Below, one piece after another: positions 50,544 to 54,608 of a DNA stretch of 64,000 nucleotides; the stretch's first letter is position 1, and the number at the start of each line of letters is the position of its first letter. Origin of the DNA: Planctomycetota bacterium (GTDB taxonomy: Bacteria > Planctomycetota > UBA8742 > UBA2392). Where the stretch lies: the NCBI GenBank assembly GCA_003576915.1, contig QEVF01000009.1, forward strand, positions 17,638-81,637. Direction: 5' to 3'. The notes under the pieces are model-generated. The model was not told the origin of the DNA. It made no database searches and was given only the letters and a program-made list of their open reading frames with translations. A program made the position numbers and the translations under genes.

Positions 50544-50903
50544 TCAGGCCCGCCTGAACTTCTCGCAGGCGTAGGGCTGGTCTTTCAGCGCTTTGCACAG
50601 CGCGTCTTCGGTCAGCTCGCAACCCGCCTTCATGGTGATGGTCAGCGTTTCGTGTTTCTCGTCCAGGCTCACCTCGTCCACACCGTCCAGTGCGAGCACC
50701 AGCTTCCTGAGGGCGGCTGCGCCTTCGGCGTCCTTGACTCCGCTGACCGAAACTTCATATTTCGCTGCCTTCACGGGCAGGTTGCGCGGGCCTCAGCCCG
50801 CTCACAGAAAGTCGGGCGTTGCGCCCCCGGCGCCAAAGGGCGCCGCCGACAGCGCGCCGCAGGACAGTGCGGCCAGCAAAACCAGCGTGAGCATCCTGTG
50901 CAT
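50544..50903 (-). CDS. Exported protein with N-terminal UAGU motif (two in-frame TGA) followed by an HMA-like ferredoxin-fold domain; putative selenoprotein A
   Basis: GAGGAG lies 6 nt upstream of the ATG at 50903. Signal peptide MHRMLTLVLLAALSCGALSA. The TGAs at 50802-50804 and 50793-50795 are in frame with the 76-aa ORF at 50544-50774, reading ..DFL-U-AG-U-GPRNLPVKAAKYEVSVSGV.. The listed ORF starts only at an internal GTG. Confidence 0.6.
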
Positions 50904-50960
50904 GGCATTCTCCTCAGGCCCCGATTGGGACGCCGGCGCGGCCGTCGAGGTTCCGCCAAT

Positions 50961-51272
50961 TCAGGGACCGGCAGGCGTCAGGGGGCTCAACTGGCGCAGG
51001 GTTACCCCCTGTTCGAGGGCCAACCGCTCAAGGGCAGCGCGCAGGGCCTGCTCCGTGCCAAGCCAGGTGATGTGAAACTCGCCCTGGGGCTCTTCGTATA
51101 CGCTTTGGACGCCATCCAGGCGCGCGATCATCTGATCGAAACCGGGTCAGTCCTCGCCTCACTGCCCGTAATCGAGCCAGGCGAGATAGTGGTGGGGCGG
51201 GGGCGCCTGCGGTTTGGGCGGGGCCGCACAGGCGGCGAGCAGCAGCAAGGACGTGAGCCACATCAAGCGCAT
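50961..51272 (-). CDS. Lipoprotein with HMA-like domain carrying UGEDU at the metal-binding loop (two in-frame TGA); putative selenoprotein B
   Basis: The ATG at 51272 gives MRLMWLTSLLLLAAC (lipobox). The TGAs at 51159-51161 and 51147-51149 are in frame. My manual translation downstream is stop-free to the TGA at 50961: ..YLAWLDYGQ-U-GED-U-PGFDQMIARLDGVQSVYEEPQGEFHITWLGTEQALRAALERL.. I see no clear SD. Confidence 0.55.
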
Positions 51273-51283
51273 GTCATAGAATA

Positions 51284-51315
51284 GAAAACCGGGCAACTGG
51301 CGTCGCCCGGTTTTC
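51284..51315 (-). terminator. Intrinsic terminator-like hairpin downstream of selenoprotein C
   Basis: On the minus strand, GAAAACCGGGC-GACGCCAGTT-GCCCGGTTTTC is followed by TATTCT. Confidence 0.6.
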
Positions 51316-51333
51316 GTATTGCGGCGGAGGATG

Positions 51334-51753
51334 CTACTTGCCGGAGCCCTTGTTCCCGTCAGTTCCGTCCTTCTTTTCTTCCTTCTTTTCTTCCTTGGTC
51401 TCCTCGCCTTCCTTGGCGAAAGAGCGGACGCTGAACTTGCTGTCCTCGAAGGCCTTGACGACCGCATCCTTCTCGATCGTCTTGCCTTCCTTCATCGTGA
51501 CGGTGGCTTCCTGCTTCTTCTTGTCCCACGTTGCTTTTTCCACGCCTTCCAGGCTGGAGAGGGTCTTGACGACCGCAGGTCCTCACGTCGCTCACGTCGC
51601 GCCGTCGATGCCAACCTTGTAAACCGTGGGTGCTGCCTTGGCCGGCTGCTCGGCCTTCTTTTCTTCGCCCTTGCTCTCCTGGGCCTGGCAGGCCACGCCC
51701 GCCACACTGACCGAGAGCAGGAGCGCGGCAGCGACGAATCCCATCTGACGCAT
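51334..51753 (-). CDS. Exported HMA/MerP-like protein with GAT-U-AT-U-G at the GMTCxxC position (two in-frame TGA); putative selenoprotein C
   Basis: AGGAGG lies 6 nt upstream of the ATG at 51753. Signal peptide MRQMGFVAAALLLSVSVAGVAC. TGAs at 51592-51594 and 51583-51585. The readthrough product VYKVGIDGATUATUGPAVVKTLSSLEGVEKATWDKKKQEATVTMKEGKTIEKDAV aligns with the Cys paralog VVTIEGMTCIKCAKAVEKAIAAIDGVESVKVCDKSGKALVTMKEGKTLDKTAV. Confidence 0.7.
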
Positions 51754-51825
51754 GTGCATCCTCCTGTTAGAGAAATGGAAACAACCCTTCCATATGGAAC
51801 TACGGAGGGCAGCTTAGCATTCCGC

Positions 51826-51858
51826 AAAAAAAGAGGGAGCGGCGCAGGCCGCTCCCTC
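51826..51858 (-). terminator. Strong rho-independent terminator after the Cys-type HMA gene
   Basis: On the minus strand, GAGGGAGCGGC-CTGC-GCCGCTCCCTC (11-bp stem) is followed by TTTTTTT. Confidence 0.8.
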
Positions 51859-51877
51859 GGCATGCGGGCGCAGAAGA

Positions 51878-52360
51878 CTAGCCCTTGGACTTCTCTGCCG
51901 TCTTCGCTTCCTTGTTCTCGTCCTTCTTGGGTTCGGCCTTCACGACGGACTTGGTCTTGAACTCCGTCTCCTTGAGGGCCGTCTCGACGGCGGTCTTGTC
52001 AAGGGTCTTGCCTTCCTTCATGGTGACCAGCGCCTTGCCGGACTTGTCGCAGACCTTGACGGACTCAACACCGTCAATGGCGGCAATGGCCTTCTCCACG
52101 GCCTTGGCGCACTTGATGCAGGTCATGCCTTCAATCGTCACGACAAAGCTGTTGGCCTTGACCTCGCCGCAGCCGCCACAATCCTTGGCATCGCCCTTGT
52201 CACAGCAGCCCTTGCCTTCTTCTTCACAGCACTTCTCGCCGTCCTTCTTCTCGCTCTTCTTGTCGCCGCAGCTATCACAGCCCTTGCACTGGGCCATCAG
52301 CGGGGCGCCGGCGAAAGCCAGGCCGAGGAAGAGCATCAAAGCAGTCAGGAACTTCGTCAT
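51878..52360 (-). CDS. Exported Cys-rich HMA domain protein (MerP/CopZ-like, canonical GMTCxxC)
   Basis: The ATG at 52360 gives signal peptide MTKFLTALMLFLGLAFAGAPLMA. A Cys-rich linker follows (CKGCDSCG..CCEEEGKGCCDKGDAKDCGGCG), then VVTIEGMTCIKCAKAVEKAI. Confidence 0.85.
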   Translation of the reverse strand: MTKFLTALMLFLGLAFAGAPLMAQCKGCDSCGDKKSEKKDGEKCCEEEGKGCCDKGDAKDCGGCGEVKANSFVVTIEGMTCIKCAKAVEKAIAAIDGVESVKVCDKSGKALVTMKEGKTLDKTAVETALKETEFKTKSVVKAEPKKDENKEAKTAEKSKG

Positions 52361-52459
52361 GTCGTCTCCGTTCATTAGTGCGGGGCAAGGCCCCATCGTG
52401 GTTGTCGTAAGCGGCCCATTATAGACGAACGGGCCGGGTCCGTCCTTACATCAAAATGG

Positions 52460-52936
52460 TCATTTCACCTTGTGTCGCGCCTTGAGCGCCTTCCAGTCTC
52501 CCTGCAGGTCCTCCTTGAAGCTGAAGACCTCATAGCCGAAGTCCTTGTAGATGAAGTCTGTGACAGTCTTCTCGTCCAGCCGGATCTGGGGCTTGCACAG
52601 GACGAAAAGCGTGAATTCCTCGATCACGGTGAAGCTGTCCAGCAACCCATACTGGGTGGTGAGGGCGTCCACGACGCCCGTGGTTCAGCCGCCTCAGTCG
52701 ATGCCCTTGAGGCCGATGGCGTAGATCACCTCCCTGATTTCCGGCCTGGCTTCCGGTTCCGCCTTGGGTTCAACCTTCGGCTCGGCCTTGGGCTGGGGCC
52801 TCGCGCCGCAGCCGGAGTCAACGGAAGCAGGCTCGCCGCCGCCCTTGCGCAGATGCACGGGCTGGAAGTCTTCTTTGGTGAGCTGGCAGCCGCCCGTCAG
52901 GGCCAGCAGCAACAGGGCCAGGAGTCCGCGGTTCAT
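52460..52936 (-). CDS. Lipoprotein with HMA-like domain carrying UGGU at the metal-binding loop (two in-frame TGA); putative selenoprotein E
   Basis: GAGGAG lies 6 nt upstream of the ATG at 52936. Lipobox LALTGGC. The TGAs at 52694-52696 and 52685-52687 join the listed ORFs 52694-52936 and 52460-52672 in one frame: ..EVIYAIGLKGID-U-GG-U-TTGVVDALTTQYG.. Confidence 0.65.
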
Positions 52937-52946
52937 AGCCTTCTCC

Positions 52947-53834
52947 TCAAATCAGGTAGCTGAACATCAGCATGAATTCGCCTTCATGGTAGAACTGCTT
53001 GCCGAACAGATAGCGATAAACCGGCAGGTTCAGCCCGAACTTGCACTCGATGCGGTTGGTGATGTTCATCTGCATGCCAAGCGCCAGATGTACGAAATAG
53101 CCGCCGCTGTTGTCATCGCGGTCGCCGTGCATGCGTCCGCGGTGCTCAAAGCGGGCGTCGGCCTCCACCAGCAGAATCAGGTCAAAATCGCGGTAATCCG
53201 TAAGCTGGAACACGCGATAGGCGTAGGCCAGGTGGGCCTGGGCTTCGGGGCCCGCGCCGCTGCCGTCAATCTGGGTGCTGCCGCGCCCCGCCAGGTCAAA
53301 CCAGAGGTAGTGGCGTGTGGTGCTGGTGGAAGCTGAGAGGCCGAACGTGAACGTCCAGTTGTCGTCAAACTCGTCGCCCATGGGCTCGCCGTGGCGCCGC
53401 GTGGCCGTGGGCATGTCGATCGTGGCAAACCACGACGCCTTGGTGGAACCGCCCTCAAACACGTTGTTGAGGAAGCGGTAAGTGCCGGCCAGAGAGAACT
53501 TGCGGGCGCCGGAGTAGACCTCGCTCCCGTCCTTGCTGTGTTCGCGCATGTAGAAGTAGGGCGTCTTGATCCGCATGGCGAAGTCGCGCGAGAACCCGTA
53601 GGTGACGCCGGGCTCGATGGTGTGCATGAACATGCGGCGGTCGCGCCCGTTGGAATCGGGGTTGTCGCCGCTGAAATAGCGGAAGGCCCAGTCGAACTCC
53701 TGCTCGAGTTCAAGTTCGAGGCCCTTGTTCCAGATGGTTCTGGGTCCCAGTCCGAACATGGTTTCGTGGGCGCTCACGGCGCCCGCGCCCAGAACTCAGA
53801 CCAGTGCCAGCAAAGCCAGGTGCTTCAGCGTCAC
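52947..53834 (-). CDS. Putative outer-membrane beta-barrel protein with one in-frame TGA inside the signal peptide
   Basis: The GTG at 53834 is preceded by AAGGAG with a 6-nt spacer and overlaps the merR stop (GTGA). The N-terminus MTLKHLALLALV-[TGA 53796-53798]-VLGAGAVSA|HE is a signal peptide. The body has alternating beta-strand-like sequence and ends ..MLMFSYLI. Confidence 0.6.
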
Positions 53835-54274
53835 GCCGGACTCCTTTTCTTGCCCTTGGGGGCCCTGGTTGGACCGCCTTCTATGCCTTGGAGGATGCTG
53901 CAGCATTCGGTGCTCTTGTCGCCGCCGGGGCAGCGTTCAATGAGGTCAGCGAGGTGATCGCGCATCTCGGTCAGCAGCTCGATTTTGCGAGTAATCTCGA
54001 TGAGCTTGCGCGAGGCAAGCTCGCTGACGTCTCCGCAGGTGGCGAGGTCGGAGGTGCGCAGGAACAGCAGGTCCTGAATCTCTTTGAGCGTGAAGCCGAC
54101 ATCCTTGGCGCGCTGGATGAAGCGCAGGCGCGCGACGTCGTCGTCGCCGTAGAGGCGATGGCCGCCGGCGCTGCGCTCGGGTTTGGGCAACAGACCCTCG
54201 CGCTCATAAAAGCGCACGGTTTCGATGTTGATGCCCGTGGACTCGGCCAGCTTGCCTACCGTCATGGTGGTCAT
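53831..54274 (-). CDS. merR: MerR-family regulator with the mercury-type Cys triad
   Basis: The HTH is KLAESTGINIETVRFYEREGLL. Cys80, Cys115 and Cys124 have the same spacing (35 residues, then C-x8-C) as Cys82, Cys117 and Cys126 of Tn501 MerR as I recall it. Confidence 0.85.
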   Translation of the reverse strand: MTTMTVGKLAESTGINIETVRFYEREGLLPKPERSAGGHRLYGDDDVARLRFIQRAKDVGFTLKEIQDLLFLRTSDLATCGDVSELASRKLIEITRKIELLTEMRDHLADLIERCPGGDKSTECCSILQGIEGGPTRAPKGKKRSPA

Positions 54275-54291
54275 GTGGCACCTCGGGGAAC

Positions 54292-54322
54292 AAGTTACCT
54301 CCGTAGCTTACTACGGGTTCAA
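54292..54322 (-). promoter_or_regulatory. MerR-type promoter/operator: -35 TTGAAC, 19-bp spacer containing dyad CCGTAG-N4-CTACGG, -10 TAACTT
   Basis: The minus strand reads TTGAAC CCGTAGTAAGCTACGGAGG TAACTT. The spacer counts to 19 nt. The dyad resembles the Tn501 mer operator (TCCGTAC-N4-GTACGGA). It lies ~18 nt upstream of the merR ATG. Confidence 0.75.
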
Positions 54323-54524: not shown

Positions 54525-54552
54525 CTGAAAGCTGGTGGTCAGGGCCGGACTT
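54525..54552. repeat. Direct repeat copy overlapping the 3' end of tRNA-Phe
   Basis: See 54364-54391. Confidence 0.9.
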
Positions 54553-54608
54553 GAACCGGCGACCCATGCATTTTCAGTGCATTGCTCTACCAACTGAGCT
54601 ACCTGACC
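54533..54608 (-). tRNA. tRNA-Phe (anticodon GAA), CCA encoded
   Basis: The minus strand reads GGTCAGG TA GCTC AGTTGGTA GAGC A ATGCA CTGAAAA TGCAT GGGTC GCCGG TTCAAGT CCGGC CCTGACC A CCA. This gives a complete cloverleaf. Confidence 0.9.

What the first reader, a model, noticed from the sequence alone, without database searches (positions are those of the whole stretch)
50544..50903. Fourth Sec pair (UAGU) sits in a post-signal-peptide tail while the HMA loop itself is degenerate; a perfect hairpin presents the second UGA in its loop
Signal peptide, then ..ATPDFL-U-AG-U-GPRNLP.., then an HMA-like domain whose usual GMTCxxC position reads GVKDAEGAA (no Cys or Sec). The metal-binding pair thus appears relocated to a flexible N-terminal arm. 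The mRNA segment GCGGGC UGAG GCCCGC (50786-50801) is a perfect 6-bp GC stem. It starts immediately after the first UGA and has the second UGA in the tetraloop. Three Cys also occur in the C-terminal third (AGCELTEDALCKALKDQPYAC).
Basis: partly seen in the sequence, partly recalled or inferred. Interest (0 to 1): 0.7.

Follow-up and report, generated by a model that had tools for sequence, protein, structure and literature searches.

The report
Two-selenocysteine tail on Cys-less metal-binding domain

Summary
On the minus strand, 50903-50544 reads signal peptide, ..PDFL-UGA-AG-UGA-GPRNLPVK.., then a domain with an HMA (heavy-metal-associated) fold whose usual CxxC loop has no Cys or Sec.

I found the same layout in about 10 sequence variants from Planctomycetota genomes and metagenomes, at 40-82% protein identity. 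All keep the signal peptide, an invariant L-U-x-G-U, both codons as TGA, and the reading frame. All 16 database clusters are 64-78 aa fragments cut just after the UGA pair. No Cys form was found.

The 6-bp hairpin is real but ordinary. The window holds 38 such hairpins, and folding is not better than shuffles (z = -1.4). In relatives it only decays or is absent. Its loop lies 6 nt from the first UGA, too close for a bacterial SECIS (selenocysteine insertion signal).

A second hairpin (50780-50765, loop CGUGAA) is present in every lineage. It shows compensatory changes (C-G, A-U, U-A, G-C) and lies 17 and 26 nt from the two UGAs. It fits the bacterial SECIS model, and the "internal GTG start" sits in its loop.

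The gene closes a cluster of five HMA genes, four with Sec pairs, behind a Hg-type MerR regulator and operator. The selenocysteine machinery of the organism could not be checked.

Verdict: a new variant of the known UxxU metal-binding selenoproteins.

The parts
50544..50903 (-). Gene E: full reading frame of 119 codons with two in-frame UGA codons, ending in TGA at 50546-50544
   Evidence: The frame, the length (357-366 nt, always a multiple of 3) and both TGAs are conserved in about 10 sequence variants.
50910..50915 (-). Shine-Dalgarno-like GAGGAG, 6 nt upstream of the ATG
   Evidence: Sequence. It is invariant between the window and the BroJett014 lineage.
50841..50903 (-). Predicted Sec-type signal peptide (MHR, hydrophobic core, then LSAA followed by P); the cleavage site is inferred
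   Evidence: Read directly from the sequence. Every orthologue has a basic N-terminus, a hydrophobic core and an AxA-like end. Substitutions upstream of PV in four close pairs fall 30/17/46 on codon positions 1/2/3 (counts, summed by hand).
50793..50804 (-). U-A-G-U motif: UGA1 at 50804-50802, GCG GGC, UGA2 at 50795-50793
   Evidence: L-U-x-G-U is invariant in the 7-sequence alignment. Both codons are TGA in all 12 distinct DNA sequences.
50786..50801 (-).
   Evidence: Across lineages 78% of cells are paired, five of six pairs vary only by disruptions, and the energy ranges from -12.3 to -1.5 kcal/mol.
50765..50780 (-). Hairpin 2, the SECIS candidate: CUGCC-CGUGAA-GGCAG, starting 12 nt after UGA2. 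The GTG used by gene callers (50774-50772) lies in its loop
   Evidence: The five core pairs are paired in all 12 sequences. The outer core pair reads AU in 7, CG in 2, GC in 2 and UA in 1. The loop bases CGUG are invariant. Energy is -7.2 to -10.3 kcal/mol. It fits the bSECIS model quoted in PMC13188914.
50547..50765 (-). HMA-fold domain (beta-alpha-beta-beta-alpha-beta) without Cys or Sec in the beta1-alpha1 loop (SGVKDAEGAA)
   Evidence: Pfam HMA 20.9 bits; AlphaFold2 pLDDT 84; Foldseek matches to ATP7B, Atx1, ZntA and MerP.
50961..52936 (-). Upstream paralogues. Gene A 52936-52460 (GID-U-GG-U), gene B 52360-51878 (GMTCIKC, the Cys form), gene C 51759-51334 (GAT-U-AT-U), gene D 51272-50961 (GQ-U-GED-U)
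   Evidence: All eight TGAs are conserved in the BroJett014 lineage and in more distant loci.
53831..54322 (-). merR-like regulator gene (54274-53831) and its MerR-type promoter/operator (54322-54292): TTGAAC-CCGTAGTAAGCTACGGAGG-TAACTT
   Evidence: Cys80, Cys115 and Cys124 have the spacing I recall for Tn21 MerR Cys82/117/126. The dyad-bearing promoter-like motif is kept upstream of merR in all five lineages checked.

Best explanation
Gene E (50903-50544, minus strand) encodes a secreted selenoprotein of about 119 residues. It belongs to a small family that I found only in Planctomycetota.

Architecture: after a cleavable signal peptide comes a short flexible tail with the invariant motif L-U-x-G-U. 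A proline-rich linker (xPRxxPV) follows, and then an HMA-fold domain that has lost its own metal-binding cysteines.

Recoding: both UGA codons are read as selenocysteine by SelB with Sec-tRNA. They are directed by one SECIS hairpin (50780-50765, loop CGUGAA) that starts 12 nt after the second UGA. Its loop lies 17 nt from UGA2 and 26 nt from UGA1, so both fall inside the 16-37 nt window of the bacterial SECIS model. The GC hairpin that holds UGA2 in its loop is a side-effect of coding Ala-Gly-Sec-Gly-Pro-Arg in a 65% GC genome. The ribosome would melt it before either UGA is decoded.

Function: the gene is the last in a cluster headed by a Hg-type MerR regulator and a MerR-type promoter. The cluster also encodes a 276-aa protein of unknown family and four other exported HMA proteins, three of them with Sec pairs. 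The two selenolates of the tail most likely bind Hg(II), or another soft metal ion, as a two-coordinate chelate. The Cys-less HMA body would serve as a docking scaffold towards the paralogous HMA proteins.

Shown: the anatomy, conservation, fold, covariation and regulator features. Inferred: Sec insertion itself, one SECIS serving both codons, export, and the identity of the metal.
For: (1) Frame and both TGAs are conserved. The window and the 82%-identical BroJett014 lineage share the ATG, the Shine-Dalgarno sequence, both TGAs and the frame. The two codons after UGA2 differ only synonymously (GGC to GGG, CCG to CCC).

(2) More distant orthologues (40-47% identity) found by HMMER, genome and metagenome scans all read signal peptide, L-U-(A/R/C)-G-U, x..PV(K/T/L)A, Cys-less HMA. 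Gene length is 357, 360 or 366 nt.

(3) All 16 strong clusters among 5.8 billion proteins are 64-78 aa. Gene callers therefore cut every member just after the UGA pair, and no full-length Cys form appears.

(4) Paralogues in the same cluster carry U-x-x-U at the canonical HMA CxxC position. Gene B has CxxC there, and a relative has U-x-x-x-C. A UxxU HMA selenoprotein family is already curated as NF041115 (PMC13188914).

(5) Hairpin 2: its five core pairs are paired in all 12 sequences. The outer core pair is A-U in 7, C-G in 2, G-C in 2 and U-A in 1, produced by non-synonymous changes on both sides. The next pair is U-A in 10, G-C in 1 and G-U in 1. No shuffle of 500 reached the covariation score, although that score is for both helices together. 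The loop has an invariant G at position 2 followed by U. Stem is 5-6 bp, loop 6 nt, energy -7.2 to -10.3 kcal/mol. These match the bSECIS constraints quoted.

(6) The upstream ORF shows codon periodicity: substitutions fall 30/17/46 at positions 1/2/3 in four close pairs (counts, summed by hand).

(7) The HMA fold is confirmed.

(8) The MerR regulator scores best against the Hg-type model TIGR02051 (131.9 bits, below its 150.85 cut-off). It has a Cys80/115/124 triad and a promoter-like motif with a 19-nt spacer and a CCGTAG/CTACGG dyad, kept in five lineages.

(9) Some Planctomycetes have complete Sec-insertion gene sets (PMC4807772).
Against: - No selA, selB, selC or selD was seen in the window. 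The only tRNA is tRNA-Phe, and the 43 ORFs scanned against Pfam gave no Sec-pathway hit. The rest of the genome could not be searched.
- No Cys-containing homologue aligns with the tail motif. This removes the usual Sec/Cys criterion for this particular site.
- Hairpin 2 in the window folds at -7.2 kcal/mol, just short of the model's -7.5.
- Its inner three pairs and its loop are also fixed by the conserved residues P-V-K/T-A. The structural evidence therefore rests on two variable pairs and about five independent lineages.
- Rfam gives no hit.
- One SECIS serving two UGAs 9 nt apart is only proposed in the literature, not demonstrated (PMC13582414).
- No merA or merT was seen in the ORFs scanned, so the metal is inferred from the regulator alone.
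- Two selenols in an exported protein would easily oxidise to a diselenide (own knowledge).
- Terminator-like hairpins after genes B and C make co-transcription with merR uncertain.
Confidence: 0.7

Rival explanations
1. There are two separate products. A 33-aa upstream ORF ends at the first TGA, and the HMA domain is made from the internal GTG (50774), or from ATG in relatives. This would give a 76-78 aa cytoplasmic protein with no selenium. Hairpin 2 would then display the start codon in its loop.
For: Gene callers annotate every member this way. GUG is invariant, and many lineages also have AUG two codons earlier. Sec machinery is unverified.
Against: - No consistent Shine-Dalgarno sequence precedes the GTG. 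The candidate start differs between lineages: CUG, AUG, UUG or GGG, followed by CCC GUG.
- A signal peptide with no mature part has no obvious use.
- Two in-frame TGAs, never TAA or TAG, in an invariant L-U-x-G-U, with the frame kept despite indels, are unexplained by this model.
- The same TGA-x-x-TGA pattern sits exactly at the CxxC position of paralogues.
- The codons between and after the TGAs show synonymous variation (GCG/GCC/GCU, GGC/GGU, CCG/CCC/CCA, CGC/CGU).
Confidence: 0.1
2. The UGA pair is recoded with the help of the SECIS, but one or both positions receive cysteine. This would happen through a SelC*/tRNA-ReC-type tRNA, giving a CxGC or mixed tail.
For: PMC13582414 reports tRNA-ReC-like tRNAs in about 56% of genomes with UxxU hydrogenases, against about 2% of other Sec-type genomes. 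These tRNAs decode UGA as Cys in the presence of a SECIS.
Against: No such tRNA is in the window. If Cys were acceptable, some ordinary TGY forms would be expected among roughly 16 clusters, and none was found.
Confidence: 0.08
3. Hairpin 1 (50801-50786) is itself a functional recoding element. It might slow the ribosome or shield UGA2 from release factor 2.
For: A hairpin of 4-6 bp can be drawn in most lineages. In L066 a GGC to GGU change creates a U-A pair opposite AAC. The Ala codon is GCG wherever the stem exists, and GCC or GCU in the lineage that lacks it.
Against: - Five of its six pairs vary only by disruptions.
- In the closest relative, two synonymous changes break it without compensation.
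- It is absent in L021/L055 (-1.5 kcal/mol).
- Its loop is 6 nt from UGA1, outside the 16-37 nt rule.
- It is not unusual for this genome.
- It must be unwound when UGA1 is in the A site (inference).
Confidence: 0.07
4. The gene is a decaying pseudogene, or the stops come from assembly or sequencing errors.
For: Two stops interrupt a short frame, and the HMA loop is degenerate.
Against: The sequence is identical on 9 independent contigs of the window lineage. Both stops, the frame and the length are conserved across lineages at 40-82% identity. The model of the domain is confident.
Confidence: 0.01

Closest known systems
NCBIfam NF041115 'UxxU_metal_bind' metal-binding (seleno)protein, listed as 'putative mercuric reductase' in the reviews PMC9312934 and PMC13188914
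   Same: An HMA-fold protein with two selenocysteines three codons apart, presumed to bind a soft metal. Predicted from genomes only.
   Different: In NF041115 the UxxU replaces the CxxC of the beta1-alpha1 loop. Here that loop has no Cys or Sec, and the pair lies in a tail about 10 residues before beta-1. Gene E gives no NF041115 match even at E up to 1. Genes B and C reach only 34-36 bits against a 95-bit cut-off. No Cys form of the tail was found.
MerP (TIGR02052), the periplasmic Hg(II)-binding protein of mer operons
   Same: Signal peptide plus a single HMA fold, encoded under a MerR-type regulator. Two chalcogen ligands spaced x-x. MerP structures are among the fold matches (1osd, 1afi).
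   Different: MerP binds Hg through GMTCxxC in the loop and uses Cys. Gene E scores 15.8 bits against a 92.55-bit cut-off. No merT or merA lies next to it.
C-terminal Cys pair of mercuric reductase MerA (own knowledge, not tested here)
   Same: A vicinal chalcogen pair on a flexible terminal segment that would capture Hg(II) and hand it on.
   Different: That pair is part of a flavoenzyme, is cytoplasmic, uses Cys and sits at the C-terminus. The resemblance is one of mechanism only.
Two-domain relative P0009 (L018, about 2302-2955): a GMT-U-GS-U HMA domain followed by a Cys-less HMA domain
   Same: The second domain is one of the nearest relatives of gene E's domain (42% identity). A Sec pair precedes a Cys-less HMA domain.
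   Different: In P0009 the Sec pair sits in a complete first HMA domain. In gene E only a tail remains. Descent of gene E by reduction of such a protein is my inference.
Bacterial SECIS consensus (bSECISearch model, as quoted in PMC13188914)
   Same: Hairpin 2 has a 6-nt loop, a 5-6 bp stem and G then U at loop positions 2-3. Its loop lies 17 and 26 nt from the two UGAs.
   Different: In the window the energy is -7.2 kcal/mol, against the model's -7.5 or lower. There is no lower stem or bulge. One element would have to serve two codons.

Membership tests
Bacterial selenoprotein gene (UGA read as Sec) | In-frame UGA conserved among orthologues, with coding sequence continuing in frame on both sides | tested here: met
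   Both TGAs and the frame are kept in 12 distinct DNA sequences from about 10 sequence variants.
Bacterial selenoprotein gene (UGA read as Sec) | Cys-containing homologues that align Cys with the UGA positions | tested here: not met
   No full-length Cys form of the tail appeared among 5.8 billion proteins; all 16 strong clusters are 64-78 aa fragments. The criterion is met only for the paralogues with a canonical loop (gene B CxxC, L024 U-x-x-x-C).
Bacterial selenoprotein gene (UGA read as Sec) | Downstream stem-loop that fits the bSECIS model: loop 3-9 nt, stem 4-16 bp, G in loop position 1 or 2, 16-37 nt from the UGA, MFE -7.5 kcal/mol or lower | tested here: met
   Hairpin 2 has a 6-nt loop CGUGAA, a 5-6 bp stem, and lies 17 and 26 nt from the UGAs. 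Energy is -7.2 kcal/mol in the window (marginal) and down to -10.3 elsewhere, with covariation. Hairpin 1 fails the spacing rule at 6 nt.
Bacterial selenoprotein gene (UGA read as Sec) | selA, selB, selC (tRNA-Sec) and selD present in the same genome | not testable with these tools
   None is in the 64-kb window. Some Planctomycetes do have the complete set (PMC4807772).
HMA domain (Pfam PF00403) | Ferredoxin-like beta-alpha-beta-beta-alpha-beta fold | tested here: met
   AlphaFold2 pLDDT 84.4 with elements E-H-E-E-H-E. Top Foldseek matches are ATP7B, Atx1, CsoZ, ZntA and MerP, with probability 1.00 and TM 0.7-0.8.
HMA domain (Pfam PF00403) | Score at or above Pfam's gathering threshold | tested here: not met
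   20.9 bits against 24.8 for the window protein. Most orthologues carry a precomputed PF00403 hit.
HMA domain (Pfam PF00403) | GMxCxxC metal-binding loop between beta-1 and alpha-1 | tested here: not met
   The loop reads SGVKDAEGAA. No Cys or Sec occurs there in any orthologue.
NF041115 UxxU_metal_bind | Score at or above the 95-bit cut-off, with UxxU in the HMA loop | tested here: not met
   Gene E gave no match at E up to 1. Its UxxU lies outside the domain.
MerP (TIGR02052) | Equivalog score of 92.55 bits or more | tested here: not met
   15.8 bits.
mer-type (MerR-controlled) metal-response cluster | MerR-family regulator with the three Hg-binding Cys, and a promoter with a 19-nt spacer carrying a dyad operator | tested here: met
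   TIGR02051 is the best hit at 131.9 bits, below its 150.85 cut-off. Cys80/115/124 are present. The site TTGAAC-N19(CCGTAG..CTACGG)-TAACTT is kept as a motif in five lineages. The comparison with Tn21 rests on my own knowledge.
mer-type (MerR-controlled) metal-response cluster | merT or merA next to the regulator | tested here: not met
   The cluster holds only merR, a 276-aa ORF of unknown family and five HMA genes. None of the 43 window ORFs scanned against Pfam gave a MerT or MerA-type hit.

The most novel reading that the evidence does not exclude
Gene E represents an obligate-selenium protein family with no cysteine counterpart. In it the metal site has moved off the HMA domain onto a diselenolate N-terminal 'fishing arm' served by its own newly evolved SECIS. 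Together with three other Sec-pair HMA proteins and a Hg-type MerR, it would form a selenoprotein-based periplasmic system for capturing mercury or other soft metals. That system would work without MerA or MerT.
Probability: 0.3. Interest if true: 0.75.

Novelty: new variant of a known kind. Interest (0 to 1): 0.55.

Why it matters
HMA proteins with a UxxU loop are already catalogued, but only as in-silico predictions. This family differs in three ways:
- the Sec pair is outside the domain;
- the domain's own metal site is gone;
- no Cys version was found, which is unusual because almost all selenoprotein families have Cys homologues.

All the database entries I found for it are truncated fragments, and those that carry a name are called "hypothetical protein", "CopZ" or "cation transporter". 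Annotation pipelines therefore miss it.

The family also offers a compact natural test case for an open question: can one bacterial SECIS decode two UGA codons 9 nt apart? Four neighbouring genes place their candidate hairpins at different distances from the UGA pair.

If the MerR link holds, it would point to selenium-based mercury handling in anaerobic Planctomycetota.

Tried and rejected
- A single-sequence word-index search with U replaced by C found only the window's own fragment and one orthologue.
It was run with the 76-aa fragment instead.
- Rfam gave only a tRNA at gathering thresholds. On the cluster at E up to 10 it gave only two chance snoRNA matches.
- Pooled pairwise pN/pS on the short tail segments was uninformative. 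Even the certainly coding segment gave about 1, because divergence is saturated. I used codon-position counts in close pairs instead.
- MAFFT on 78-nt segments introduced spurious gaps in the 3' arm. I realigned gap-free 54-nt segments.
- The metagenome pattern scan returned 38 stretches, of which only 4 were real family members; the rest were chance matches.
- A screen of the window for other single in-frame TGAs flanked by coding-like sequence found nothing convincing.
- The 276-aa neighbour has no Pfam, NCBIfam or PDB sequence match.
- A lipoprotein reading of 'LSCG' was rejected, because that Cys is not conserved and the lipobox is poor.
- A role for the three C-terminal Cys was rejected, because they are not conserved.
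Full report
OBSERVATION

The feature lies on the minus strand. Translating 50903-50544 gives MHRMLTLVLLAALSCGALSAAPFGAGGATPDFL*AG*GPRNLPVKAAKYEVSVSGVKDAEGAAALRKLVLALDGVDEVSLDEKHETLTITMKAGCELTEDALCKALKDQPYACEKFRRA*. Both internal stops are TGA, at 50804-50802 and 50795-50793. The segment GCGGGC-UGAG-GCCCGC occupies 50801-50786, directly after the first UGA and with the second UGA in its loop. The ordinary ORF list shows only a 33-aa ORF and a 76-aa ORF starting at GTG 50774.

CONTEXT IN THE WINDOW

The window is 65% GC, and TGA is used as a normal stop, including by this gene and by the convergent surE gene. Five HMA-like genes lie head to tail on the minus strand:
- gene A, 52936-52460: ..GLKGID-U-GG-U-TTG..
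- gene B, 52360-51878: GMTCIKC, the Cys form
- gene C, 51759-51334: ..DGAT-U-AT-U-GP..
- gene D, 51272-50961: ..YGQ-U-GED-U-PGF..
- gene E, the target

Genes B and C hit Pfam HMA. They also hit, below threshold, the NCBIfam model NF041115 'UxxU_metal_bind, metal-binding (seleno)protein'. Gene E hits HMA at 20.9 bits over residues 51-92 and gives no NF041115 match. HMA proteins with a UxxU loop are therefore a known predicted selenoprotein family (PMC13188914 and PMC9312934).

Upstream of gene A lie a 276-aa ORF with no family match and a MerR-family regulator at 54274-53831. Its best model is the Hg-type MerR TIGR02051, at 131.9 bits and below the 150.85 cut-off. It has Cys80, Cys115 and Cys124/125. 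From my own knowledge, that is the spacing of the Hg-binding Cys82/117/126 of Tn21 MerR.

In front of it sits TTGAAC-CCGTAGTAAGCTACGGAGG-TAACTT, a 19-nt spacer with a perfect CCGTAG/CTACGG dyad, at 54322-54292. The motif is kept upstream of merR in all five lineages checked. No Sec-pathway gene, merA or merT appeared among the 43 window ORFs scanned against Pfam. The only tRNA is tRNA-Phe.

IS THE READING FRAME REAL?

The 76-aa fragment occurs on 13 contigs. Its nearest relative, at 82% identity, is a Planctomycetota genome bin named BroJett014 and occurs on 51 contigs. Nine contigs of the window lineage, from different samples, are identical across the tail region, so this is not a sequencing error.

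Against the BroJett014 lineage, the ATG, the Shine-Dalgarno sequence, both TGAs and the frame are all kept. The stretch PDFL-U-AG-U-GPRNLPVKAAKYE is identical at the protein level, with two synonymous changes right after UGA2. All eight TGAs of genes A, C, D and E are conserved.

An exhaustive HMMER search with the fragment returned short 'truncated' proteins, and I read the DNA upstream of them. A genome scan, a DNA-pattern scan of metagenomes and a profile search followed. Together they gave 12 distinct DNA sequences from about 10 sequence variants, at 40-82% identity. Those with an organism name are Planctomycetota.

Every one reads the same way: a signal peptide, then [L/Y]L-U-(A/R/C)-G-U, then five residues and PV(K/T/L)A, then a Cys-less HMA domain. 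In the alignment L33, U34, G36, U37, P43, V44 and A46 are invariant. Gene length is 357, 360 or 366 nt.

In four close pairs, substitutions between the ATG and the PV motif fall 30, 17 and 46 times on codon positions 1, 2 and 3. These are the counts summed by hand. A hand chi-square against equal thirds gives about 13.6 with 2 degrees of freedom. The upstream ORF is therefore translated in the frame of the domain. The codons between and after the TGAs vary synonymously: Ala GCG/GCC/GCU, Gly GGC/GGU, Pro CCG/CCC/CCA, Arg CGC/CGU.

All 16 strong clusters in the 5.8-billion-protein collection are 64-78 aa long. Every member is therefore cut just after the UGA pair, and no Cys form of the tail was found.

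THE DOMAIN

An AlphaFold2 model of residues 38-119 with the orthologue alignment gives pLDDT 84.4. It has beta-alpha-beta-beta-alpha-beta topology and a low-confidence first ten residues, which I read as the linker. Foldseek against the PDB returns HMA domains: ATP7B, Atx1, CsoZ, ZntA and MerP, with probability 1.00 and TM 0.7-0.8. The beta1-alpha1 loop has no Cys or Sec in any member. The three C-terminal Cys are specific to the window lineage.

The nearest non-family relatives are Cys-less HMA domains in multi-domain proteins. One is a two-domain protein whose first domain carries GMT-U-GS-U. Gene E could be a reduced form of such a protein; this is my inference.

THE TWO HAIRPINS

- It folds at -11.2 kcal/mol in the window, but the 61-nt region folds no better than shuffles (z = -1.38).
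- The window contains 38 perfect 6-bp stems with 4-nt loops. Random synonymous coding of A-G-U-G-P-R with the window's codon usage gives the full stem 6.5% of the time.
- Across lineages it is perfect in L067 and L069, and L066 has a 6-bp variant with one U-A pair. It is shortened to 5 bp in L063 and L065. It is bulged or mismatched in BroJett014, L017, L020 and L023, and absent in L021 and L055.
- On the alignment 78% of cells pair. Five of the six pairs vary only by disruptions, and one cell shows a U-A replacement.
- Its loop is 6 nt from UGA1, whereas the bacterial SECIS model requires 16-37 nt (PMC13188914). With UGA1 in the A site, its 5' arm would lie inside the ribosome (inference).

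Hairpin 2 (CUGCC-CGUGAA-GGCAG, 50780-50765) starts 12 nt after UGA2 in every lineage.
- Its five core pairs are paired in all 12 sequences. Counting a sixth, outer pair that is kept in 8 of 12, the helix is 94% paired.
- The outer core pair is A-U in 7, C-G in 2, G-C in 2 and U-A in 1. The next pair is U-A in 10, G-C in 1 and G-U in 1.
- These changes are non-synonymous on both sides (Leu/Met/Leu/Gly against Ala/Ser/Thr/Leu), which points to an RNA constraint rather than a protein one.
- The loop bases CGUG are invariant, giving a G at position 2 followed by U. The loop is 6 nt and the stem 5-6 bp. The loop lies 17 nt from UGA2 and 26 nt from UGA1. Energy is -7.2 to -10.3 kcal/mol.
- This satisfies the published bSECIS constraints, marginally for energy in the window itself.
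- The GTG that gene callers use as the start is the G-U-G of this loop.

Caveats apply. The inner three pairs and the loop are also fixed by the conserved residues P-V-K-A. The covariation rests on about five independent lineages. The metagenome pattern fixed the loop and part of the inner stem, although it added only near-duplicates of lineages already in hand.

The other Sec-pair genes have different candidate hairpins at other distances. This is expected if moving the Sec pair into the tail required a SECIS of its own.

HOW IT MOST LIKELY WORKS

The steps shown are the anatomy, conservation, fold, covariation and regulator features. The inferred steps are these:
- SelB with Sec-tRNA, bound to hairpin 2, decodes UGA1 and then UGA2. 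A single SECIS for UxxU motifs has been proposed elsewhere but not demonstrated (PMC13582414).
- The protein is exported and its signal peptide is cut after ..SAA.
- The tail's two selenolates chelate Hg(II) or another soft metal, as the CxxC of MerP does.
- The Cys-less HMA body docks on the paralogous HMA proteins.

The same paper notes that tRNA-ReC-type tRNAs, which insert Cys at SECIS-linked UGA codons, are enriched in genomes with UxxU genes. Cys at one or both positions is therefore a rival that I cannot exclude.

VERDICT

The gene is very probably a genuine two-Sec selenoprotein, and the tail location of the pair is a conserved family trait. The emphasised hairpin is probably incidental, and the functional element is more likely hairpin 2.

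It is a new variant of the known HMA/UxxU selenoprotein kind. It is currently annotated only as truncated fragments.

Missing pieces are the Sec machinery of the organism, any Cys homologue, and all experimental evidence.

Noticed in passing
window 54292-54322 (minus strand): A MerR-type promoter/operator: TTGAAC, a 19-nt spacer holding the perfect dyad CCGTAG-TAAG-CTACGG, then TAACTT. It lies just upstream of the merR-like gene, which points the same way as the HMA genes rather than divergently. The motif is kept in L001, L023, L063 and L067.
   Followed up: partly
window 53831-54274 (minus strand): The MerR-family regulator has Cys80, Cys115 and Cys124/125, the spacing I recall for the Hg-binding triad of Tn21 MerR. 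Its best NCBIfam model is Hg-MerR TIGR02051, below cut-off, with ZntR and CueR close behind.
   Followed up: partly
window 52947-53777 (minus strand): A 276-aa ORF is conserved as the second gene of the cluster in every lineage that has enough flanking sequence. It has no Pfam, NCBIfam or PDB sequence match. Its alternating pattern and aromatic C-terminus suggest an outer-membrane barrel, but this is a guess.
   Followed up: partly
window 50961-51272 (gene D, minus strand); also L018, L023 and L024: Some paralogues carry U-x-x-x-U instead of U-x-x-U: gene D Q-U-GED-U-P, L018 GMM-U-GVS-U and GMD-U-GVG-U, L023 GMS-U-GIK-U. L024 has a mixed U-GVG-C next to U-GGG-U. Gene D has no Pfam hit at all.
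   Followed up: no
window 51334-51759 (gene C); hairpin about 24 nt after its second UGA: The stretch UCC AGC CUG GAN GGC GUG GA, coding SSL(E/D)GV(E/D), is identical at synonymous sites in all gene C orthologues. It is also identical in the distant L018 and L024 genes. It folds as UCCAGCC-UGGAN-GGC(G)UGGA and is a likely SECIS for that gene type. It never varies, so covariation cannot be tested.
   Followed up: partly
window 52460-52936 (gene A); 5 nt after its second UGA: A conserved 7-bp hairpin GGGCGUC-GUN-GACGCCC lies only 12 nt (to the loop) from UGA2 and 21 nt from UGA1. The candidate recoding hairpins of genes A, C and E thus sit at quite different distances from their UGA pairs.
   Followed up: no
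window 51833-51858 and 51284-51315 (minus strand): Terminator-like hairpins lie right after gene B (11 bp followed by a run of seven T) and after gene C. Genes C, D and E may therefore not be simply co-transcribed with merR.
   Followed up: no
L018, about 2302-2955: A two-domain exported protein: a GMT-U-GS-U HMA domain followed by a Cys-less HMA domain (KKAARYSVTLEGLKADEG). The second domain resembles gene E's and may be an evolutionary intermediate.
   Followed up: partly
Protein clusters P0001, P0002, P0006, P0007, P0013 and P0017-P0027: All public gene calls for this family that I retrieved are fragments of 64-78 aa. Those with a name are called 'hypothetical protein', 'copper chaperone CopZ' or 'cation transporter'. 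The 33-35-aa signal-peptide ORFs are called separately.
   Followed up: yes
window 54533-54608 (minus strand): tRNA-Phe (GAA) lies immediately upstream of the merR promoter region. It is the only tRNA in the window.
   Followed up: no
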